This document shows, in pieces, positions 6,428 to 61,803 of a stretch of 64,000 nucleotides of DNA. The notes beneath the pieces are model-generated. The model saw only the letters and a list, made by a program, of their open reading frames with translations, was not told the DNA's origin and searched no databases. The translations under genes were made by a program, and so were the position numbers. Every line of letters starts with the position of its first letter. Position 1 is the stretch's first letter. This stretch comes from Leucoraja erinacea (lineage: Eukaryota), in NCBI RefSeq assembly GCF_028641065.1, contig NW_026575814.1, forward strand, positions 62,001-126,000. The letters run 5' to 3'.

Positions 6428-6559
6428 ACCAAGGTGGCCGTGTTCCCATATGGCTAGTGATCCCGGCTATCCTGCTGCTTCTGTGCACACTGGGGGTTGT
6501 TTTCTACTTGTGGAAGAATGGTTCGGGAGTGGTGAAAGGCTGCTGCTCTTTTGACAAGG
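6428..6559 (+). CDS. Host gene A: transmembrane exon of a type I membrane protein (x-QGGRVPIWLVIPAILLLLCTLGVVFYLWKNGSGVVKGCCSFDK-G)
   Basis: Unique island between repeats. Acceptor ttcttgtttaaccag|, donor AAGG|gtaaga, 132 bp, phase 1/1, open frame. About 21-aa hydrophobic helix followed by WK stop-transfer. Confidence 0.85.
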
Positions 6560-6627
6560 GTAAGACCGCATTGTATGATCTGTTTTGCATGCGACAGCCG
6601 CTCGCATTTGTTAACCTCAAGCACTTG

Positions 6628-7835
6628 GTTTAGTTTAGACACACACCAAGGTAACAGGCCCTTCGGCCCACCAAGTCCATGCTGACCATCGATCACCCAT
6701 TCATACTAGGTGTATGTTATCCCATTTCTCATCTACTCCCTACACACTAGGGATAGGTATGTTACAAAACCTACCTGAATCGTCATTGGGAATCTGCCCA
6801 CAGCCAGGTCCGCGATTTTGGCGCTGTTTGGAGGGGGCGGGTTTAAAACGCGATTTTTACTAGGCTGTACTAATCGCAGATGTTCAGCCTAGTAAATCAT
6901 TAACGAAAAATCGCTGCAAGACCCGGTCGCAAAAGGTATTATTAGTTTTATAGGCCTCGATAATATAGTTATAATAGTTTTAAAATTACTCTCTCATTCC
7001 GCAACCTCTCGCAGCCCCAGGGTTTTATAAAGCAAACAATTAAAGGTATGTACCTTATTTTTACATTAAATGGGGCATATATATATAACCCTGTATATCA
7101 AGTTATCTATAGCGAGTAGTTCATTTTGGGCTTTTTATATCCCGCAGTATTTTTCTCGGCATTTGAGGGCACTAATCCAGCGCGATGTCAACGTTCTAAA
7201 CCAGCGCGTTCCACATGAACCCACTAGAAAGCCGATTTAAATGGGCATTTATTTACAGCAATTGAACACTAAATTCCTTCCATTTGGCCTATAAATTAAT
7301 GTAAATTAGATATAAAAATCATGTTATATTGTGAATTATTTGTGAATAATCTTTGGACACTTAGGCTATTTAAAAATGTTAATCTTTCCTTAAGAAATGG
7401 GCTTTTGACTATCCAAGATCACAGCTTTTTTGTAATGTCCATTGAAAATCAATAGAGAAACAAGATGCTAATTTCCGAGTATGAAAATGGCCATAACATT
7501 TTTAATACTTGAGATATGAAAGTGAATTTGGTGTCAAATTAAACTTATTGTTATGCTTTATCTGATGGGATAAATTGCAGACTTGATTTTTAAAATCTCA
7601 AAATGTTGTAACATTGCTACTAGGGAGGGGGGGGAATTTACAGAGGGACAGTTAACCTGCAGTTCCGCACATCTTTGGGAAGTGGGAGGAAACCGGAGCA
7701 CACAGAGCAAACCCATGCGGTCATAGGGAGAACATGCAAACTCGGCACACACAGACTGCACCCGTGGTCAGGATCGAACCCGTGTCTCTGGCACGGTGAG
7801 ACAGCAGCTCTACCCGCTGCACCACTGTGCTGCCC
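6628..7835 (-). mobile_element. tRNA-derived V-SINE (HE1-like), split by the DNA transposon
   Basis: A/B-box head at ~7765-7835, V-domain, CR1-like 3' tail at ~6628-6700. Confidence 0.75.
6754..7619. mobile_element. Non-autonomous TIR DNA transposon inserted in a V-SINE
   Basis: Imperfect TIRs TAGGTATGTTACAA / TTGTAACATTGCTA. Direct repeat CTAGGGA at 6747-6753 and 7620-7626. Confidence 0.8.
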
Positions 7836-7909
7836 CAGCACAAAGTAAAACAAATATTCTTAAATACACTGAAAAGTAAACGACTATATTACAATCCTTG
7901 TCAAGGATG

Positions 7910-8742
7910 CATTCCCTATGCTACAGTGCAGCGCTCCCTCTGTTCCCTATGCTACAGTGCAGCATTCCCTCTGTTCGCTATGCATCAGTGCAGCATTCCC
8001 TCTGTTCCCTATGCATCAGTGCAGCACTCCCTCTGTTCCCTATGCATCAGTGCAGCACTCCCTCTGTTCCCTATGCATCAGTGCAGCACTCCCTCCGTTC
8101 CCTATGCATCAGTGCAGCACTCCCTCTGTTCCCTATGCTACAGTGCAGCGCTCCCTCTGTTCCCTATGCATCAGTGCAGCGCTCCCTCTGTTCCCTATGC
8201 TACAGTGCAGCGCTCCCTCTGTTCCCTATGCATCAGTGCAGCACTCCCTCTGTTCCCTATGCATCAGTGCAGCGTTCCCTCTGTTCCCTATGCATCAGTG
8301 CAGCACTCCCTCAGTTCCCTATGCATCAGTGCAGCACTCCCTCTGTTCCCTATGCTACAGTGCAGCACTCCCTCTGTTCCCTATGCATCAGTGCAGTGCT
8401 CCCTCTGTTCCCTATGCATCCGTGCAGCGCTCCCTCTGTTCCCTATGCTACAGTGCAGCGCTCCCAGTTCCCTATGCATCAGTGCAGCACTCCCTCAGTT
8501 CCCTATGCTACAGTGCAGCACTCCCTCTGTTCCCTATGCTACAGTGCAGCGCTCCCTCTGTTCCCTATGCATCCGTGCAGCGCTCCCTCTGTTCCCTATG
8601 CTACAGTGCAGCGCTCCCAGTTCCCTATGCATCAGTGCAGCACTCCCTCTGTTCCCTATGCATCAGTGCAGCACTCCCTCCGTTCCCTATGCAGCAGTGC
8701 AGCGCTCCCTCTGTTCCTTATGCTACAGTGCAGCGTTCCCTC
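7910..8742. repeat. 31-bp minisatellite (TGCAGCACTCCCTCTGTTCCCTATGCATCAG)n, about 27 copies
   Basis: Direct tandem units. Explains the three overlapping stop-free ORFs at 7827-8809. Confidence 0.95.
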
Positions 8743-8797
8743 TCTCCAATATCTCCAGCTGCGCTCTAATCTCAAGGAAGAATTGTCCCAGAATATG

Positions 8798-9347
8798 ATA
8801 GAAATTTAGAAATTAGGTGCAGGAGTAGGCCATTCGGCCCTTCGAGCCTGCACCGCCACTCAATATGATCATGGCTGATCATCCAACTCAGTATCCCTGT
8901 ACCTGCCTTCTCTCCATACCCTCTGATCCCTTTAGCCACAAGGGCCACATCTAACCTCTTAAATATAGCCAATGAACTGGCCTCGACTACCCTCTGTGGC
9001 AGAGAGTTCCAGAGATTCCCCACTCTCTGTGTGAAAAAAGTTCTTCTCATCTCGGTTTTAAAGGATTTCCCCCTTATCCTTAAGCTGTGACCCCTTGTCC
9101 TGGACTTCCCCAACATCGGGAGCAATCTTCCTGCATCTAGCCTGTCCAACCCCTTAAGAATTTTGTAAGTTTCTATAAGGTCCCCCCCTCAATCTCCTAA
9201 ATTCTAGAGAGTATAAACCAAGTCTATCCAGTCTTTCTTCATAAGACAGTCCTGCCATCCCAGGAATCAGTCTGGTGAACCTTCTCTGCGCTCCCTCTAT
9301 GGCAATAATGTCCTTCCTCAGATTTGGAGACCAAAACTGTACGCAAT
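8798..9347 (-). mobile_element. CR1 family A 3' fragment
   Basis: Near-identical to other A copies. Confidence 0.9.
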
Positions 9348-9437
9348 GTGTTTGTGTTCAGTTTGATGCGGAGCGGATGGCAGTGTTTCCGCAGTGACAT
9401 TTCTCAGCAGCTGACTTGTGCCTTTCCATTTGTTTAG

Positions 9438-9467
9438 GATCCAGTGAGATTAACTCTTCCTCATCAG
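9438..9467 (+). CDS. Host gene A: 30-bp cytoplasmic-tail exon (GSSEINSSSS-G)
   Basis: Acceptor cctttccatttgtttag|, consensus donor CAG|gtgagt, phase 1/1, in frame with flanking exons. Confidence 0.8.
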
Positions 9468-9649
9468 GTGAGTAACATTGTACGGGCTTGTTGGACTAGG
9501 GCAGTTGCTAAGTTCAGCTCCCGGCATGGATCACAATAATGGAACAGAGCACATAGAACAGTACAGCACATGAATGTGCCCTTCAACCCACAGTGTCTGT
9601 GCCCGAACATGATGCCATGACCATCACTTATCTGCCTGCCCATAATCCA

Positions 9650-10259
9650 TATACCATATAACCATATAACAATTACAGCACGGAAACAGGCCATCTCGGC
9701 CCTACAAGTCCATGCCGAACAAATTTTTTTCCCCTTAGTCCCACCTGCCTGCGCTCGTACCATAACCCTCCATTCCCTTCTCATCCATATGCCTATCCAA
9801 TTTATTTTTAAATGATACCAATGAACCTGCCTCCACCACTTCCACTGGAAGCTCATTCCACACCGCCACCACTCTCTGCGTAAAGAAGTTCCCCCTCATA
9901 TCACCCCTAAACTTCTGTCCCTTAATTCTGAAGTCATGTCCTCTTGTTTGAATCTTCCCTATTCTCAAAGGGAAAAGCTTGTCCACATCAACTCTGTCTA
10001 TCCCTCTCATCATTTTAAAGACCTCTATCAGGCCCCCCCTTAACCTTCTGCGCTCCAGAGAATAAAGACCTAACTTATTCAACCTATCTCTGTAACTTAG
10101 TTGTTGAAACCAAGGCAACATTCTAGTAAATCTTCTCTGTACTCTCTCTATTTTGTTGACATCATACCTATAATTGAGCGACCAAAATTGTACACCATAC
10201 TCCAGATTTGGTCTCACCAATGCCTTGTACAATTTTAACATTACATCCCAGCTTCTATA
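9650..10259 (-). mobile_element. CR1 family B1 3' fragment
   Basis: ORF 9735-10241. Confidence 0.9.
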
Positions 10260-10684
10260 GCGAGGAAGGGTCCTTATGAGGAAGGGTCCCGACGTTGCTG
10301 ATCTATTTCCCAGGCAACATTCTGGTAAATCTACATATCCATAACCAATATCCCTCCATTCCTATTGTATCCATATACCTATCCAAAAACCTTTGAAATG
10401 CCACTTTCCTATCTGCTTTAACCACCTTGGCCGTTCGTTCCAGGCAGTCACCCCCCCTTGTGTGAGGTGGGTTGAGGGGAGGGTGGGGAATGTGGTGGTG
10501 GGGAGGGAGAAGGACGTGGGACGGTGTTTAGTTTTGGGATACAGCATGGAAACTGACTCTTCAGCCCACCGGGTCCACACCAGCCATCGTGCACATGTTC
10601 GCTAGTTCAGCGTTACCCCACTTTTGCACCCACCCCCTGACACCAGGGTCAATTAACCTACAGGATGTGGGAGGAAACCAGGAC

Positions 10685-11243
10685 ATAGAAACATAGAAAC
10701 ATAGAAATTAGGTGCAGGAGTAGGCCATTCGGCCCTTTGAGCCTGCACCGCCATTTAATATGATCATGGCTGATCATCCAACTCAGTATCCCGTACCTGC
10801 CTTCTCTCCATACCCTCTGATCCCCTTGGCCACAAGGGCCACATCTAACTCCCTCTTAAATATAGCCAATGAACTGTGGCCTCAACTATCCTCTGTGGCA
10901 GAGAGTTCCAGAGATTCACCACTCTCTGTGTGAAAAAAGTTCTCATCTCGGTTTTAAAGAATTCCCCCTTATCCTTAAGCTGTGACCCCTTGTCCTGGAC
11001 TTCCCCAACATCGGGAACAATCTGCCTGCATCTAGCCTGTCCAACCCCTTAAGAATTTTGTACGTTTCTATAAGATCCCCCCTCTCAATCTCCTAAATTC
11101 TAGAGAGTATAAACCAAGTCTATCCAGTCTTTCTTCATAAGACAGTCCTGCCATCCCAGGGATCAGTCTGGTGAACCTTCTCTGCGCTCCCTCTATGCCA
11201 ATAATGTCCTTCCTCAGATTTGGAGACCAAAACTGTACGCAAT
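10685..11243 (-). mobile_element. CR1 family A 3' fragment nested in a V-SINE (~10527-11395)
   Basis: A-family sequence with SINE halves on both sides. Confidence 0.9.
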
Positions 11244-11451
11244 GTGTTTGTGTTCAGTTTGATGCGGAGCCGATGGCAGTGCTCTGGTCGCAGGGAGAAC
11301 GTGCAAACTCCACACACGCAGCACCCGAGGTCAGGATGGAACCTGGGTCTCTGTCACTGTGAGGGAGCAGGTCCACCCACTGCGCCAACTGTGCTGTCTG
11401 ATCATACATCTTCCCTGGAATTTCCACTCACCTTGTTACTCTCTATCTTAG

Positions 11452-11554
11452 GTTCCACCAGCAGTCAGTCTTTGCAGAAGGATGTAACAGCAGGAGGAGT
11501 TGACAGGAACGAGAAAGAGAAAATGCTTCCCAAGTCCGACTCCCCAATCATGAG
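11452..11554 (+). CDS. Host gene A: cytoplasmic-tail exon (GSTSSQSLQKDVTAGGVDRNEKEKMLPKSDSPIM..); read-through alternative ends at TGA 11571-11573 (..RSDCPV*)
   Basis: Strong acceptor ttactctctatcttag|, phase 1, open frame. Candidate donor ATGAG|gtctga is weaker, so the 3' end is uncertain. Confidence 0.7.
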
Positions 11555-11566
11555 GTCTGACTGCCC

Positions 11567-11661
11567 AGTCTGAAGAAGGGTCTCGACCCCGAAACGTCAC
11601 CCATTCCTTCTCTCCAGAGATGCTGCCTGCCCCGCTGAGTTACTCCAGCATTTTGTGTCTA
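11567..11661 (+). mobile_element. Penelope-derived terminal repeat with minimal hammerhead motif
   Basis: CTGAAGA-A-GGGTCTCGACCCC-GAAA-CGTC followed by the conserved gatgctgcctg..ctgagttactccagc tail. Confidence 0.7.
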
Positions 11662-11690
11662 TCCCCAATCATGGACCCTGTTCGAGTGGA

Positions 11691-12551
11691 CAAGATACAA
11701 GATACAAGATACAATTTAATTGTCATTTGGACCCCTTGAGGTCCAAACGAAATGCCGTTTCTGCAGCCATACATTACATTACAACAAATAGACCCAAGAC
11801 ACAACATAATTTACATAAACATCCATCACATCGCTGTGATGGAAGGCCAAAAAAACCTATCTCTCTCCACTGCACTCCCCCCCGCCCCCCCCCCATCTCA
11901 GAGTCAAAGTCAATGCCCCCGGTTGGCGATGGCGATTGTCCCGCGGCCATTAAAGCCACGCCGGGTGGTGCGAGGTCGCACACCGGGTCTTGGTGTTAGA
12001 GCCCCCGGCGTGCGCTCGCAGAGTCCCGCAGCCATTCCAAGCCGCGCGGGGCGGTGCTGTCAGGCCCCGCTCCAGGAGCTCTTCAACCCCGCAACTCGGG
12101 CGGGGGAAGTCGTCGTTGCGAGAGCCCTGAAACGCGGTCTCCCTCCAGGGACCCGCGGGCTCCCGGTGCCGCCGTCCACCAGACCTGCAGTTGAAGCCTC
12201 CGAATCTCCGGAGGTCGGGCCGCAGCAGCAGCAGCAGCAGCGCTCCACCACCGCTCCACCCGCTCCGGACTCGGCCAGCTCCGCGACGGTGAGGTGAGTC
12301 GTCGGCACCAGAGCCCCCGGTCTCTTCCTGTTGGAGGCCGCTCCTCGTTGCAGCCCCAACGATAACGGAGACAGACAAGAAAAGGTCGGGTCTCCCGTGC
12401 AGGGAGAGATTTAAACGTTTCCCCCTCCCTCCCACACACACGTCCCAACAAAAAATAACAAAAACTACATAGAAACATAGACAGAAAATAATAAAAACGC
12501 GGACGGGCTGCAGAGGCCGCTGCTGACGAGAGTCGCGCCGCCTACCGGACT
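11691..12551 (-). mobile_element. CpG-rich non-autonomous retroelement (~860 bp) with (TGTATCT)n tail
   Basis: Highly similar partial copies at 19107-19571 and 43570-44196. 3' end tgacaattaaa-microsatellite resembles Rex1/Babar tails. Confidence 0.75.
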
Positions 12552-13744
12552 GGTGCCCTCTTATTGGAAAGGATGTTTCTTTAGACTCTAGAGATACAGT
12601 GTGGAAACAGACCCCTCAGCCCACTGAGTCCGCACCAACCAGCGATCACCCTGAACACTAGCACGATCCTAAGTAAGTAAGTAAGTTCATTGGCCAAGTA
12701 TTCACATACAAGGAATTTGTCTTGGTGCTCTGCCCACGTAACAACATGACACAGTGACAGTTACGAATGACTCAGAAAACATGAAACATTAATAATAATA
12801 AAACATGAATGATAAAACACCATTGATCAAGCATGTGAACCAACAAAATACCTGATTAAAGGGAGGCTACAGATTTTTGGCTGTTGAGTAGAGCAACTAC
12901 TCGTGGATAAAAATTGTTTTTATGTCTGGCTGTGGCAGCTTTGACAGTCCGGAGTTGCCTTCCAGTGGGAAGTGATTCAAAGAGTTTGTGCTACGCACTA
13001 GGGGCAATTTATAATTTCGACTGAAGCCATTTAACCTACAAGTCCGCACATCTTTGGAGAATGGGAGGAATTTGGAGCTCCCTAAGAAAATGCGCACAGT
13101 CCCAGTGAGAACGTGCAAACTCCGTACAGAGAGCACTCCGAAATAAAAACGTGGGACCACTCAGCAGGTCAGGCAGCATCCATGGATGTTGTAGATAGAT
13201 AGCCCCCGAAACATATAGTAGACCAGTGATCACTGCTGCGCTGTGGACTGCAAGCTTTGTGCCAGGCCTGAGGTTTTCACCAGATCATGGGTCATTGGAG
13301 CAGAATTAGGCCATTGAGTCCATCGAGTCTGCTCTGCCATACATCTCCATTCTAATGGCATGGCCTTTAATTCTGAGGCTGTGCCCTCTGGTCCTAGAAT
13401 CTTCTCCACAATCACTCTGTCCAGGCCTTTTGACCTGAGATATCACATTTACGTTTCATATCTCTAAGTTTCCCTCCCTCCTGACTCTCGGTCTCAAGAA
13501 GAGTATGGGCAAAAGCATCAGCTATTCCTTTCCCCCAGAGACGCTGCCTGACCAGCTGAGTAACTCCAGCATTAGTGATGAATGTTTTTTCTCAGTTCCC
13601 CAACACAGTTAAATACCGATTTGACCACTATCTAATTATTTGGAAATCTTGGTAGTTCGATGCGAGGCAGATGCTGACTCCCACCATCCCTCTCACACAC
13701 TGGAGCCCAGTTCTACTGATCCTTTAAAACGCTGGGGTCTGCTA

Positions 13745-14185
13745 AACATAGAAACATAGAAATTAGGTGCAGGAGTAGGCCATTCGGCCCTTCGAGCCTG
13801 CACCGCCATTCAATATCATGGCTGATCATCCAACTCAGTATCCCGTACCTGCCTTCTCTCCATACCCCCTGATCCCCTTAGCCACAAGGGCCACATCTAA
13901 CTCCCTCTTAAATATAGCCAATGAACTGGCCTCAACTACCCTCTGTGGCAGAGAGTTCCAGAGATTCACCACTCTCTGTGTGAAAAAAAGTTCTTCTCAT
14001 CTCGGTTTTAAAGGATTTCCCCTTTATCCTTAAGCTGTGACCCCTTGTCCTGGACTTCCCTAACATCGGGAACAATCTTCCTGCATCTAGCCTGTCCAAC
14101 CCCTTAAGAATTTTGTAAGTTTCTATAAGATCCCCTCTCAATCTTCTAAATTCTAGAGAGTATAAACCAAGTCTATCCAGTCTTT
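13745..14185 (-). mobile_element. CR1 family A 3' fragment
   Basis: A-family sequence and tail. Confidence 0.9.
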
Positions 14186-14336
14186 GTTACCCACGCTCCT
14201 GTTAAACTCACCTGTGTCCTGTTGGCTTTTAAAGATTATCTATTTTTGCTGTGAAATGTATCATACATTGAATAATATCTTCAATACAAATATATTAAAT
14301 GGATGTCAAAATACTATTTTCTATTGTCCAATGGGT

Positions 14337-14348
14337 AATAAAAATAAA
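14337..14348 (+). terminator. Tandem AATAAA polyadenylation signals (gene A)
   Basis: AATAAAAATAAA in unique AT-rich sequence, with ATTAAA about 20 nt downstream. Confidence 0.45.
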
Positions 14349-14764
14349 CTATAATACAAATCGATTAAAAGGACATCAGAATATTATTTGCTTCTCATCT
14401 TCAGTTTCGAAGAGTGATCTGGTTAGCGTACAGAGAAGATTTACGAGGATGTTGCCAGGACTTGTGTGTCTGGGCTATCGGGTAGAGGTTGAGCAGGCTG
14501 GGACTCAATTCCTTGGAGAGCAGGTGGATGAAGGGATATGGGTGTATAAAATCATGAGAGGAATAGATCGGGTAGATGCACCGAGTCTCGTGCCCAGAGT
14601 CGGGGAATCGAGGTCCAGAGGATATTGGTTTGAGGTGAACAGAGGAATAGGAATCTGATGGGTAACTTTTCCCACACAAAGGGTGGTGGGAGTATGGAAT
14701 GAGGTGCCAGAGGAGGTAGTTGATGCAGGGACTATCCCAACATTTAAGAAACAGTTAGACTGGT

Positions 14765-48245: not shown

Positions 48246-48999
48246 ATATAACCATATAACAATTACAGCACGGAAACAGGCCATCTCGACCCTACAAGTC
48301 CATGCCGAACAAATTTTTTTCCCCTTAGTCCCACCTGCCTGCACTCATACCATAACCCTCCATTCCCTTCTCATCCATATGCCTATCCAATTTATTTTTA
48401 AATGATACCAATGAACCTGCCTCCACCACTTCCACTGGGAGCTCATTCCACACCGCCACCACTCTCTGCGTAAAGAAGTTCCCCCTCATATTACCCCTAA
48501 ACTTCTGTCCCTTAATTCTGAAGTCATGTCCTCTTGTTTGAATCCTCCCTATTCTCAAAGGGAAAAGCTTGTCCACATCAACTCTGTCTATCCCTCTCAT
48601 CATTTTAAAGACCTCTATCAGGTCCCCCCTTAACCTTCTGCGCTCCAGAGAATAAAGACCTAACTTATTCAACCTATCTCTGTAACTTAGTTGTTGAAAC
48701 CCAGGCAACATTCTAGTAAATCTCCTCTGTACTCTCTCTATTTTGTTGACATCCTTCCTATAATTTGGCGACCAAAATTGTACACCATACTCCAGATTTG
48801 GTCTCACCAATGCCTTGTACAATTTTAACATTACATCCCAGCTTCTATACTCAATGCTCTGATTTATAAAGGCTAGCATACCAAAAGCTTTCTTTACCAC
48901 CCTAGCTATATGAGATTCCACCTTCAAGGAACTATGCACGGTTATACCCAGATCCCTCTGTTCAACTGTATTCTTCAATTCCCTACCATTTACCATGTA
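48246..48999 (-). mobile_element. CR1 family B1 fragment within a V-SINE
   Basis: ORF 48325-49008. Confidence 0.9.
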
Positions 49000-49522
49000 T
49001 TCATTCATACTGTCCTACACACACTAGGGATAATTTACAATTATTTCAGCCTACAAACCTGTACGCCTTGGGAGGAAAGTGATCTCGGAGAAAACCCACG
49101 CCGGTCACGGGGAGAACGTACAAACTCCGCACAGACAGCACCCGCAGTTAGAATCGAACCCGGGTCTCTGGCGCTGTAAGGCAGCAACTCTGCCGACGCG
49201 CCACCGTGCCGCCCGAGTTAACAGAGTGAGTGACGGGTCAGGACTACAAGGCAAGCAAACCCTTGGAGTGAAGGGTGGCTGAGTGGGTACTCCAGGAACA
49301 GCACTCCACACCAAAGCTTAGACTACATTTGAGACTCCTCTGTCACTTCCAACTCTTTTTGCAGAACAACCAGGAACGGGCTACTGATTGGGGACGATCA
49401 GCCATGATCACATTGAATGGCGGTGCTGACTCGAAGAGCCAAATGGCCTACTCCTGCACCTATTGTCTATTCTCACTGTACTTAGTTTTTCTATGTGGGG
49501 GAGGTGGGCAGGGGAAGGGGGA

Positions 49523-52669: not shown

Positions 52670-54135
52670 CAGATAGTGAAGATGGATGTGAAAGATTGCA
52701 GCAGGATCTTGATAGATTGGCCAGGTCGGCTGAAGAATGGTTGATGGAATTTAATACAGAGAAATGTGAGATGTTGCATTTTGGGATGTCGAACAAGGGC
52801 AGTGAACGTTAGGCCTCTGGGAAGTGTTGTGGAGCAGAGGGATCTAGGAGCACAGGTGCATGGTTCCTTCAAGGTAGAGTCGCAGGTAGAGAAGGGTGTC
52901 AAAAAGGCGTTTGGCACTTTGGCCTTCATCAGTCAGAGTATTGAATAGAGAAGTTGGGAGGTCATGTTGCAGTTGTATAAGATGTTGGTGAGACCGCATT
53001 TAGAATATTGTGTTCAAGAAGGAACTACAGATGCTGGAAAATCGAAGGTACACAAAAATGCTGGAGAAACTCAGCGGGTGCAGCAGCATCTATGGAACGA
53101 AGGAAATAGTGACGTTTCGGGCCGAAACCCTTCTTCAGACTGATATTGATATTAGAATATTGTGTTCTGGGCACCACGTTATAGGAAAGATATTGTCAAG
53201 CTTGAAAGGGTTCAGAGATGATTTACGAGGATGTTGCCAGGAATAGAGGGTGTGAGCTATAGGGAGAGGTTGAGTAGGCTGGGTCTCTATTCTTTGGAGC
53301 ACAGGAGGATGAGGGGTGATCTTATTGAGTTGCATAAAATCATGAGAGGAATAGATCGGGGTAAATGCACAGAGTCTCTTGCCCAGAGTGGGGGAATCAA
53401 GGACCAGAGGACATAGGTTCAAGATGAAGGGGAAAGGATTCAATAGGAATCTGAGGGGTAACTTTTTCACACTGCGGGTGGTGGGTGTATGGAACAAGCT
53501 GCCAGAGGAGGTAGTTGAGGCTGGGAATATCCCAACGTTTAAGAAATAGTTATACAGGTACATGGATAGGACAGGTTTGGAGGGATATAGAAACATAGAA
53601 ACATAGACAATAGGTGCAGGAGTAGAGGCCATTCGGCCCTTCGAGCCTGCACCGCCATTCAATATGATCATGGCTGATCATCCAACTCAGTATCCCGTAC
53701 CTGCCTTCTCTCCATACCCCCTGATCCCCTTAGCCCCAAGGGCCACATCTAACTCCCTCTTAAATATAGCCAATGAACTGTGGCCTCAACTACCCTCTGT
53801 GGCAGAGAGTTCCAGAGATTCACCACTCTCTGTGTGAAAAAAGTTCTTCTCATCTCGGTTTTTTAAAGGATTTCCCCCTTATCCTTAAGCTGTGACCCCT
53901 TGTCCTGGACTTCCCTAACATCGGGAACAATCTTCCTGCATCTAGCCTGTCCAACCCCTTAAGAATTTTGTAAGTTTCTATAAGATCCCCTCTCAATCTT
54001 CTAAAAATTCTAGAGAGTATAAACCAAGGATGGACCAAGCACATGCAGGTGGGACTAGTGTAGCTGGGACATGTTGGCCGGTGTGGGCTAGTTGGGCCGA
54101 AGGGCCTGTTTCCACACTGTATCACCCTGTGACTT
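52670..54135 (+). mobile_element. Older CR1 hosting a Penelope repeat (~53010-53145) and CR1-A (-, 53588-54027)
   Basis: EQRDLGAQVHGSFKV..KKAFGTLAFI motifs. Confidence 0.75.
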
Positions 54136-60783: not shown

Positions 60784-60859
60784 ATGGAAAGTTGTAACGT
60801 ACCTGTATCACTCCTGTTCGCCGTCTTGTCTCTCTGCTCTGTGTCGGGAGACCACGCAG
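60784..60859 (+). CDS. Host gene C: first coding exon, signal peptide MESCNVPVSLLFAVLSLCSVSGDHA-(G/x)
   Basis: Strong Kozak context gccaagATGG, hydrophobic core, small-residue cleavage region (VSG or DHA), donor CAG|gtaaga, 76 nt (phase 1). Confidence 0.85.
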
Positions 60860-60938: not shown

Positions 60939-61401
60939 AATGTTGCCTGGGTTTCAACAACTAAGTTACAGAGAAAGGTTGAACAAGTTAGGGCTTTATT
61001 CTTTGGAGCGCAGAAGGTTAAGGGGGGACTTGATAGAGGTTTTTAAAATGATGAGAGGGATAGACAGAGTTGACGTGGAAAAGCTTTTCCCACTGAGAGT
61101 AGGGAAGATTCAAGCAAGGGGACATGACATGAGAATTAAGGGACTGAAGTTTAGGGGTAACATGAGGGGGAACTTCTTTACTCAGAGAGTGGTAGCTGTG
61201 TGGAATGAGCTTCCAGTGAAGGTGGTGGAGGCAGGTTCGTTTTTATCATTTAAAAATAAATTGGATAGTTATATGGATGGGAAGGGAATGGAGGGTTATG
61301 GTCTGAGCGCAGGTATATGGGACTAGGGGAGATTATGTGTTCGGCACGGACTAGAAGGGTCGAGATGGCCTGTTTCCGTGCTGTAATTGTTATATGGTTA
61401 T
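60939..61401 (+). mobile_element. CR1 family B2 3' fragment in intron 1 of gene C
   Basis: ORF 60940-61326. Confidence 0.9.
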
Positions 61402-61803
61402 ATTCTTCGGGAAAGTAACAGGAGAAACTCAGCGGGTCGGGCAGCATCCGTGGAGGGAAGTGGACAATCTTTGTCCCAGGGGTTGGAAATCGGCAGCCAG
61501 AAGGCATAGGGTGAGAGGGGGAAGATTTAATAGGAACATTTTCACTCAGATGGTGTGTGGTGGGAACACGGGATGAGTTGCCAGGGGAAGTATGTAGGAA
61601 GAAACTGCAGATGCCGGTTTAACCTGTAGACACAAAATGCTGGAGTAACTCAGCGGGACAGGCAGCATCGCTGGAGAGAGGGAACGGCTGACGTTTTGGG
61701 TCGAGACCCTTCTTCAGACTGCGGAGGAAGATGAGGCAGAATCAGTAACAACATTTAAAAGACACATGGACAGGTGCGTGGGTAGGGTAGATAGGTGGAG
61801 AGT

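What the first reader, a model, noticed from the sequence alone, without database searches (positions are those of the whole stretch)
6428..14370. Hidden host gene: 3' end of a type I membrane receptor with an MHC class I-like exon layout
Seen: three in-frame phase-1 exons buried in TEs (132-bp TM, 30-bp Ser-rich, ~103-bp tail), plus a candidate last exon contributing only 1 nt and a stop before a UTR with tandem AATAAA. Known: MHC class I heavy-chain genes have a TM exon, short phase-1 cytoplasmic exons and an almost non-coding last exon; Ig-superfamily receptors also use phase-1 introns. Inference: a non-classical class I-like or other IgSF immune receptor with a tail of about 60 aa. No ectodomain lies in the window, so the family is unproven.
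Basis: partly seen in the sequence, partly recalled or inferred. Interest (0 to 1): 0.75.

Follow-up and report, generated by a model that had tools for sequence, protein, structure and literature searches.

The report
Skate UDA, known nonclassical MHC-I gene
These exons are the membrane-anchor and tail end of UDA, an already described immune gene of sharks and skates that likely shows a narrow set of peptides to T cells; the gene is ordinary, though its stop codon lies inside an inserted repeat rather than in the tiny last exon that was proposed.

Summary
The three exons are real and the class I guess is right, but the gene is known. Leader, alpha1, alpha2 and alpha3 exons lie just upstream on the same contig, the last ending 430 bp before the window. 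The seven-exon model equals RefSeq little-skate protein XP_055521806.1 in 383 of 383 residues. Its ectodomain differs from published Leer_UDA at 8 of 272 positions (by eye). It keeps 8 of 9 peptide anchors (Leu at 123), is the only close alpha2 match in the genome and sits beside a UFA-like gene, as published. The proposed 1-nt last exon is not supported: 13 of 13 run-derived proteins seen and two transcript-like contigs read through 11554 to a stop at 11571-11573. That stop lies in a 109-bp repeat insertion flanked by a 12-bp duplication, inside a hammerhead-like motif. Rays, thorny skate and this skate end the protein in valine at three different stops. Verdict: known gene, small curiosity at the C-terminus.

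The parts
6428..6559 (+). UDA exon 5: connecting peptide, transmembrane helix, start of tail (phase 1-1). Exons 1-4 lie upstream of the window at G000:C633:41079-41130 (leader), 48939-49202 (alpha1), 52929-53204 (alpha2), 61295-61570 (alpha3)
9438..9467 (+). UDA exon 6, 30-bp Ser-rich cytoplasmic exon; skipped in RefSeq isoform X2
   Evidence: loose end of contig X2; P0019 equals the model without this exon
11452..11573 (+). UDA exon 7, coding part, ending in Val-TGA (stop 11571-11573)
11541..11552 (+). Left copy of a 12-bp direct repeat, likely target-site duplication
11553..11661 (.). 109-bp insertion, mostly a high-copy repeat; supplies the last codons and the stop. The first two letters or so are absent in a related skate
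   Evidence: (62 local hits in 196 kb, itself included)
11570..11598 (+). Minimal hammerhead-like motif of the repeat (CUGAAGA box, stem II, GAAA, CGUC); the UDA stop codon is the UGA of the box; this copy looks degraded
   Evidence: no Rfam match
11662..11673 (+). Right copy of the 12-bp direct repeat
11574..14360 (+). Probable repeat-rich 3' UTR of about 2.8 kb, ending after tandem AATAAA at 14337/14343 (continuity inferred, not shown)
   Evidence: X1 contigs of depth 11-15 on the unique stretches, one ending at 14359; sense-strand reads of run X21 at 13632-13737 and 14268-14373
13609..13612 (+).

Best explanation
The three exons are the 3' coding end of the skate's single UDA gene, a seven-exon nonclassical MHC class I heavy chain of 383 residues that likely pairs with beta-2-microglobulin and likely presents a restricted set of peptides to T cells or NK-like receptors. 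Shown: exon structure, splicing of the three window exons, identity with UDA, 8 of 9 peptide-terminus anchors, low variation in the groove domains, read-through to the stop at 11571-11573. Inferred: peptide binding with both ends anchored, beta-2-microglobulin pairing, surface expression. Inferred history of the tail: skates lost the stop that rays have right after KMLV, the frame ran on, and a repeat insertion supplied a new Val-stop; a 2-nt gain in this skate moved the end six residues on, to a second Val-stop in the same repeat. The terminal valine would act as an ER-export signal as in HLA-A (untested).
For: Upstream exons in phase 1 with AG/GT ends; Pfam MHC_I E 1e-14 and 2e-17, C1-set 2e-15. 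Model identical to RefSeq P0020, 383/383; the record's contig has the same length as C633, 259,686. Versus Leer_UDA in supplementary file 10 of PMC10751288, compared by eye: alpha1 87/88, alpha2 90/92, alpha3 87/92; 7 of these 8 differences fall at sites that vary among run-derived proteins. Anchor string YYRLTKWYY in 13 of 15 orthologues aligned. Next-best alpha2 match in the genome 41% identical, 9 matches in all, 14 of 14 candidates scored. UFA-like gene downstream, as in the published UDA/UEA/UFA cluster. Among 12 run-derived proteins, mean pairwise difference 0.021 in alpha1, 0.016 in alpha2, 0.046 in alpha3. Read-through in 13 of 13 run-derived proteins seen.
Against: No function was tested. 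Raw RNA reads hardly cover the unique exon (X24 depth 0.37, X22 and X21 zero at 11406-11511), so splicing rests on contigs whose RNA status is a guess, on proteins predicted from such contigs, and on RefSeq. 17 of 32 cluster members were not listed. Five of the seven shark orthologues aligned do not end in Val, and one skate variant ends in Ala. The empty insertion site was not seen in any species. The genome search gives lower bounds on copy number.
Confidence: 0.96

Rival explanations
1. The main transcript splices 11554 to 13609 and ends in a mammalian-style, almost non-coding last exon.
For: A GT follows 11554, a pyrimidine-rich AG precedes 13609 and a stop follows after 1 nt. The unique stretches after 13609 carry sense-strand reads in run X21.
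Against: 13 of 13 run-derived proteins seen and both RefSeq isoforms read through; contigs X1 and X2 cross 11554 without a break and no loose end appears there; an X1 contig crosses 13608/13609 unspliced.
Confidence: 0.03
2. It is a classical, polymorphic class I gene (UAA).
For: 8 of 9 anchors are kept; best PDB matches include classical class I molecules.
Against: Near identity to Leer_UDA and clear difference from the UAA rows in the same supplement; Leu at 123; variation lowest in alpha1/alpha2.
Confidence: 0.01
3. Gene identity as in the best explanation, but the Val-stop at the end is the gene's own old sequence or an accident, and the repeat landed beside it with no effect on function.
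For: Most repeat copies match only from about position 14 of the insert; several shark orthologues lack a terminal Val; no empty site was seen.
Against: The stop at 11571-11573 lies in the part shared by nearly all copies; five copies also match from insert positions 4-5, which covers most of the first Val-stop; the 12-bp duplication brackets both stops.
Confidence: 0.3

Closest known systems
Leer_UDA / elasmobranch UDA lineage (Almeida et al. 2020, not readable here; queries in PMC10751288 supplementary file 10)
   Same: 264 of 272 ectodomain residues by eye; single copy; next to a UFA-like gene; same anchor pattern as nurse shark UDA (P0016)
   Different: Eight substitutions, probably allelic. 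The tail is not in the supplement; I could not see whether its end was described in the 2020 paper.
[quoted passage not shown]
   Same: Identical to my seven-exon model, and to the model without the 30-bp exon
   Different: None in sequence; the automatic name does not say UDA
Classical class I (UAA, HLA-A)
   Same: Leader-alpha1-alpha2-alpha3-TM-tail exons in phase 1, Asn86 glycosylation site, both disulfide pairs, 8 of 9 anchors, C-terminal Val as in HLA-A
   Different: Leu instead of Phe/Tyr at 123, low groove variation, 65-aa tail, no separate last mini-exon
Minimal hammerhead motifs of Penelope-like elements (PMC4209133)
   Same: CUGAnGA box, extra base before stem II, G-C first pair, GAAA, palindromic remainder; dispersed single copies
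   Different: No link to a Penelope reverse transcriptase was shown; this copy has an extra C, a 2-bp helix I and does not fold as a hammerhead in the lowest-energy structure

Membership tests
MHC class I heavy chain | alpha1 and alpha2 groove domains plus a C1-set alpha3 on phase-1 exons, then TM and tail | tested here: met
MHC class I heavy chain | Pairs with beta-2-microglobulin and reaches the surface | not tested
   no complex prediction or experiment was run
UDA lineage | Sequence orthology to published UDA | tested here: met
   8 differences in 272 residues from Leer_UDA, compared by eye; no tree built
UDA lineage | 8 of 9 invariant peptide-terminus residues (feature recalled from Almeida 2020, which was not held) | tested here: met
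   YYRLTKWYY here and in 13 of 15 orthologues
UDA lineage | Single copy in elasmobranchs (PMC10751288) | tested here: met
   one 99% match, next 41%; the search gives lower bounds
UDA lineage | In the class Ib cluster with UFA/UEA, flanked by brd2/b2m and rxrb/col11a2 | tested here: inconclusive
   UFA-like neighbour found; the flanking markers were not searched on this 260-kb contig
UDA lineage | Mono- or oligomorphic (recalled) | tested here: met
   4 of 77 and 5 of 92 variable sites in alpha1/alpha2, none at anchors, among 12 run-derived proteins; these may be chimeric or from more than one species
UDA lineage | Lower, tissue-biased expression than UAA (recalled) | not tested
   no comparison with UAA was laid
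Classical class I (UAA) | All nine anchors and high groove polymorphism | tested here: not met
   Leu123; variation lowest in alpha1/alpha2
Penelope-like minimal hammerhead | Conserved core boxes with stem II in a repeat family | tested here: met
   12 motif hits in 196 kb against 0-4 (mean 0.5) in 20 mononucleotide shuffles; 11 belong to the repeat family and show two stem-loop variants
Penelope-like minimal hammerhead | Lies in the terminal repeats of an element with RT and GIY-YIG domains; self-cleaves as a dimer | not tested
   no such element was searched for; cleavage needs a bench assay

The most novel reading that the evidence does not exclude
After skates lost the ancestral stop codon of UDA, a Penelope-like repeat was co-opted as the end of the coding sequence, and selection twice restored a C-terminal valine ER-export signal (thorny skate ends at the first Val-stop of the repeat, this skate at the second, which is the catalytic box of a hammerhead-like motif). 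An alpha3-less spliced form adds a second, possibly beta-2-microglobulin-free receptor.
Probability: 0.15. Interest if true: 0.45.

Novelty: already known. Interest (0 to 1): 0.14.

Why it matters
UDA is a class I lineage shared by sharks, rays and chimaeras whose ligand and receptor are still unknown, so the gene itself is of interest to comparative immunologists, but this locus is already annotated and its lineage published. What is added is small: the correct 3' end, a repeat-derived stop that keeps a terminal valine, an alpha3-skipping form, and a neighbouring UFA-like gene that ends in a hydrophobic stretch with no tail.

Tried and rejected
1-nt last exon at 13609: rejected as the main form. 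Other Ig-superfamily receptor: rejected. Run search: no RNA holder listed; the query was half repeat, so the shares were not used as evidence. Raw-read runs X24, X22 and X21 gave next to no reads on exon 7: no test of junctions or expression. X19 laid nothing: no test of an empty site. Rfam found nothing above chance at 11450-11750; 11555-11615 folds no better than shuffles, z -0.41, so an active ribozyme in this mRNA is not claimed. The primary papers on UDA (PMC7002201) and on UCA (PMC8454915) were not held. PMC6523485 concerns trout UDA, a different gene. A search for UDA + little skate + MHC class I found 0 papers, yet the supplement of PMC10751288 holds Leer_UDA. No near-identical chain among the 60 PDB matches shown of 470; the best, 9ch4, reads like the UGA query of the supplement. 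No earlier scan notes near this place. No tree, fold or complex prediction was run.

Full report
Observation. The window is G000:C633:62001-126000. Exons 6428-6559 and 9438-9467 and the acceptor at 11452 have proper splice ends and join in one frame that encodes a transmembrane helix and a Ser-rich tail. AATAAA stands at 14337 and 14343. A cut at 11554 would be phase 2 and uses a weak donor.

Upstream exons. I fetched the rest of the contig, masked repeats by self-comparison and scanned for exons. Four exons precede the window on the same strand: leader C633:41079-41130, alpha1 48939-49202, alpha2 52929-53204, alpha3 61295-61570, all joined in phase 1. Pfam gives MHC_I for alpha1 and alpha2 and C1-set for alpha3.

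Identity. A protein search with alpha2 returned 13 proteins among 42 candidates, all from cartilaginous fish or unnamed run contigs. The cluster of the best full-length one holds RefSeq little-skate proteins XP_055521806.1 and XP_055521807.1, on a contig of 259,686 bases like C633, and a thorny-skate protein. The seven-exon model that reads through 11554 is identical to the first; without the 30-bp exon it is identical to the second. Supplementary file 10 of PMC10751288 lists lineage queries; by eye Leer_UDA matches 87 of 88, 90 of 92 and 87 of 92 residues in alpha1-3, and P0016 reads as its nurse shark UDA. The paper's text (passages) and a review (PMC12562908, passages) call UDA a single-copy class Ib gene in a cluster with UEA and UFA. 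In the genome alpha2 has one 99% match and the next at 41%. A UFA-like gene follows downstream, its leader exon inside the window at 60784-60859; fused database models show the same order in Rhinoraja and Scyliorhinus. No tree was built.

How it likely works. Positions 7, 59, 84, 123, 143, 146, 147, 159 and 171 read YYRLTKWYY, as in 13 of 15 orthologues aligned. That these residues hold the peptide ends, and that UDA keeps 8 of 9, is recalled; the primary paper was not held. Among 12 run-derived proteins the groove domains vary least (mean pairwise difference 0.021 and 0.016, against 0.046 in alpha3), and no anchor varies. These proteins come from assembled contigs, may be chimeric and may span species. 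The most likely mechanism is a beta-2-microglobulin-bound, nearly invariant class I molecule that presents a restricted peptide set; this is inferred, not tested.

The 3' end. All 13 run-derived proteins seen end by read-through (17 of 32 cluster members were not listed). Contig X1 aligns from 11450 to 11610 and contig X2 from 11450 past 11568, the latter with the 30-bp exon as its loose 5' end. Another X1 contig crosses the proposed acceptor at 13609 unspliced, and one ends at 14359 just after the AATAAA pair, though contigs cannot show an RNA end. Run X21 has sense-strand reads on those unique stretches but none on exon 7. Against full certainty: X1 and X2 are RNA only by guess, raw-read runs gave almost no reads on exon 7, and only 15 of 527 joints were printed. 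A 2.8-kb repeat-rich UTR is the simplest reading; the 1-nt exon is unsupported as the main form.

The stop codon. A 12-bp direct repeat (11541-11552, 11662-11673) brackets 109 bp that are mostly a high-copy repeat. The stop at 11571-11573 is inside it. Four ray orthologues end at KMLV, where skates read on; the thorny skate ends at PIMV; a DNA contig of a related organism lacks two letters at 11552-11554, which also gives Val-stop; this skate ends at MRSDCPV. So three different stops each follow a valine. In HLA-A the last residue serves as an ER-export signal (PMC3741148, passages citing the authors' earlier work). Against selection for it: five of seven shark orthologues aligned end otherwise and one skate variant ends in Ala. 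The repeat carries the boxes of a minimal hammerhead: 12 hits in 196 kb against a mean of 0.5 in shuffles, fitting the Penelope-associated motifs of PMC4209133 (parts 1-2 of 4 read), which did not cleave as single copies there. This copy has an extra C, no Rfam match and no such fold, so I treat it as inert. Neither the empty site nor a parent element was found.

Novelty. The gene is annotated and its lineage published. I found no description of the repeat-derived stop or of the alpha3-less form, but my paper searches were not aimed closely at these points and the two primary papers, with their supplements, could not be read. Verdict: already known; interest 0.14.

Noticed in passing
window 60784-60859; rest at G000:C633:135833-136081, about 140160-140430, 143595-143864, about 159092-159177: Leader exon of a second class I gene, UFA-like (CD1-like lineage) by eye against the supplement queries. 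Its last exon ends in a hydrophobic run followed at once by a stop, with no cytoplasmic tail, which looks like a GPI-anchor signal; Rhinoraja and Scyliorhinus models end alike. One paper search found only a review mentioning UFA.
   Followed up: partly
protein P0001 (alpha2 exon joined to window 6428): A run-derived UDA form that skips the whole alpha3 exon in frame, seen on 5 contigs; it resembles the alpha3-less HLA-G4 form (recalled).
   Followed up: partly
window 11570, 25270, 25281, 53138 and other copies on C633: A dispersed repeat family with minimal hammerhead boxes and two stem II variants, one closed by a UUCG loop; some copies sit head to head on opposite strands. Its reads are very abundant in RNA runs.
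   Followed up: partly
L005:4531-5346 (C633:34531-35346, minus strand): GNAT acetyltransferase reading frame about 6 kb upstream of the UDA leader, on the opposite strand.
   Followed up: partly
window about 7915-8745: Tandem array of a roughly 30-bp unit in the intron after the TM exon; it gives stop-free frames of about 300 codons that are probably not genes.
   Followed up: no
window about 11690-12550: A second repeat insertion begins about 17 bp after the right-hand target duplication, so the UTR start is a nest of insertions.
   Followed up: partly
proteins P0003, P0005, P0013: RefSeq models in three other cartilaginous fish fuse UDA with a neighbouring class I gene, probably annotation errors.
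   Followed up: no
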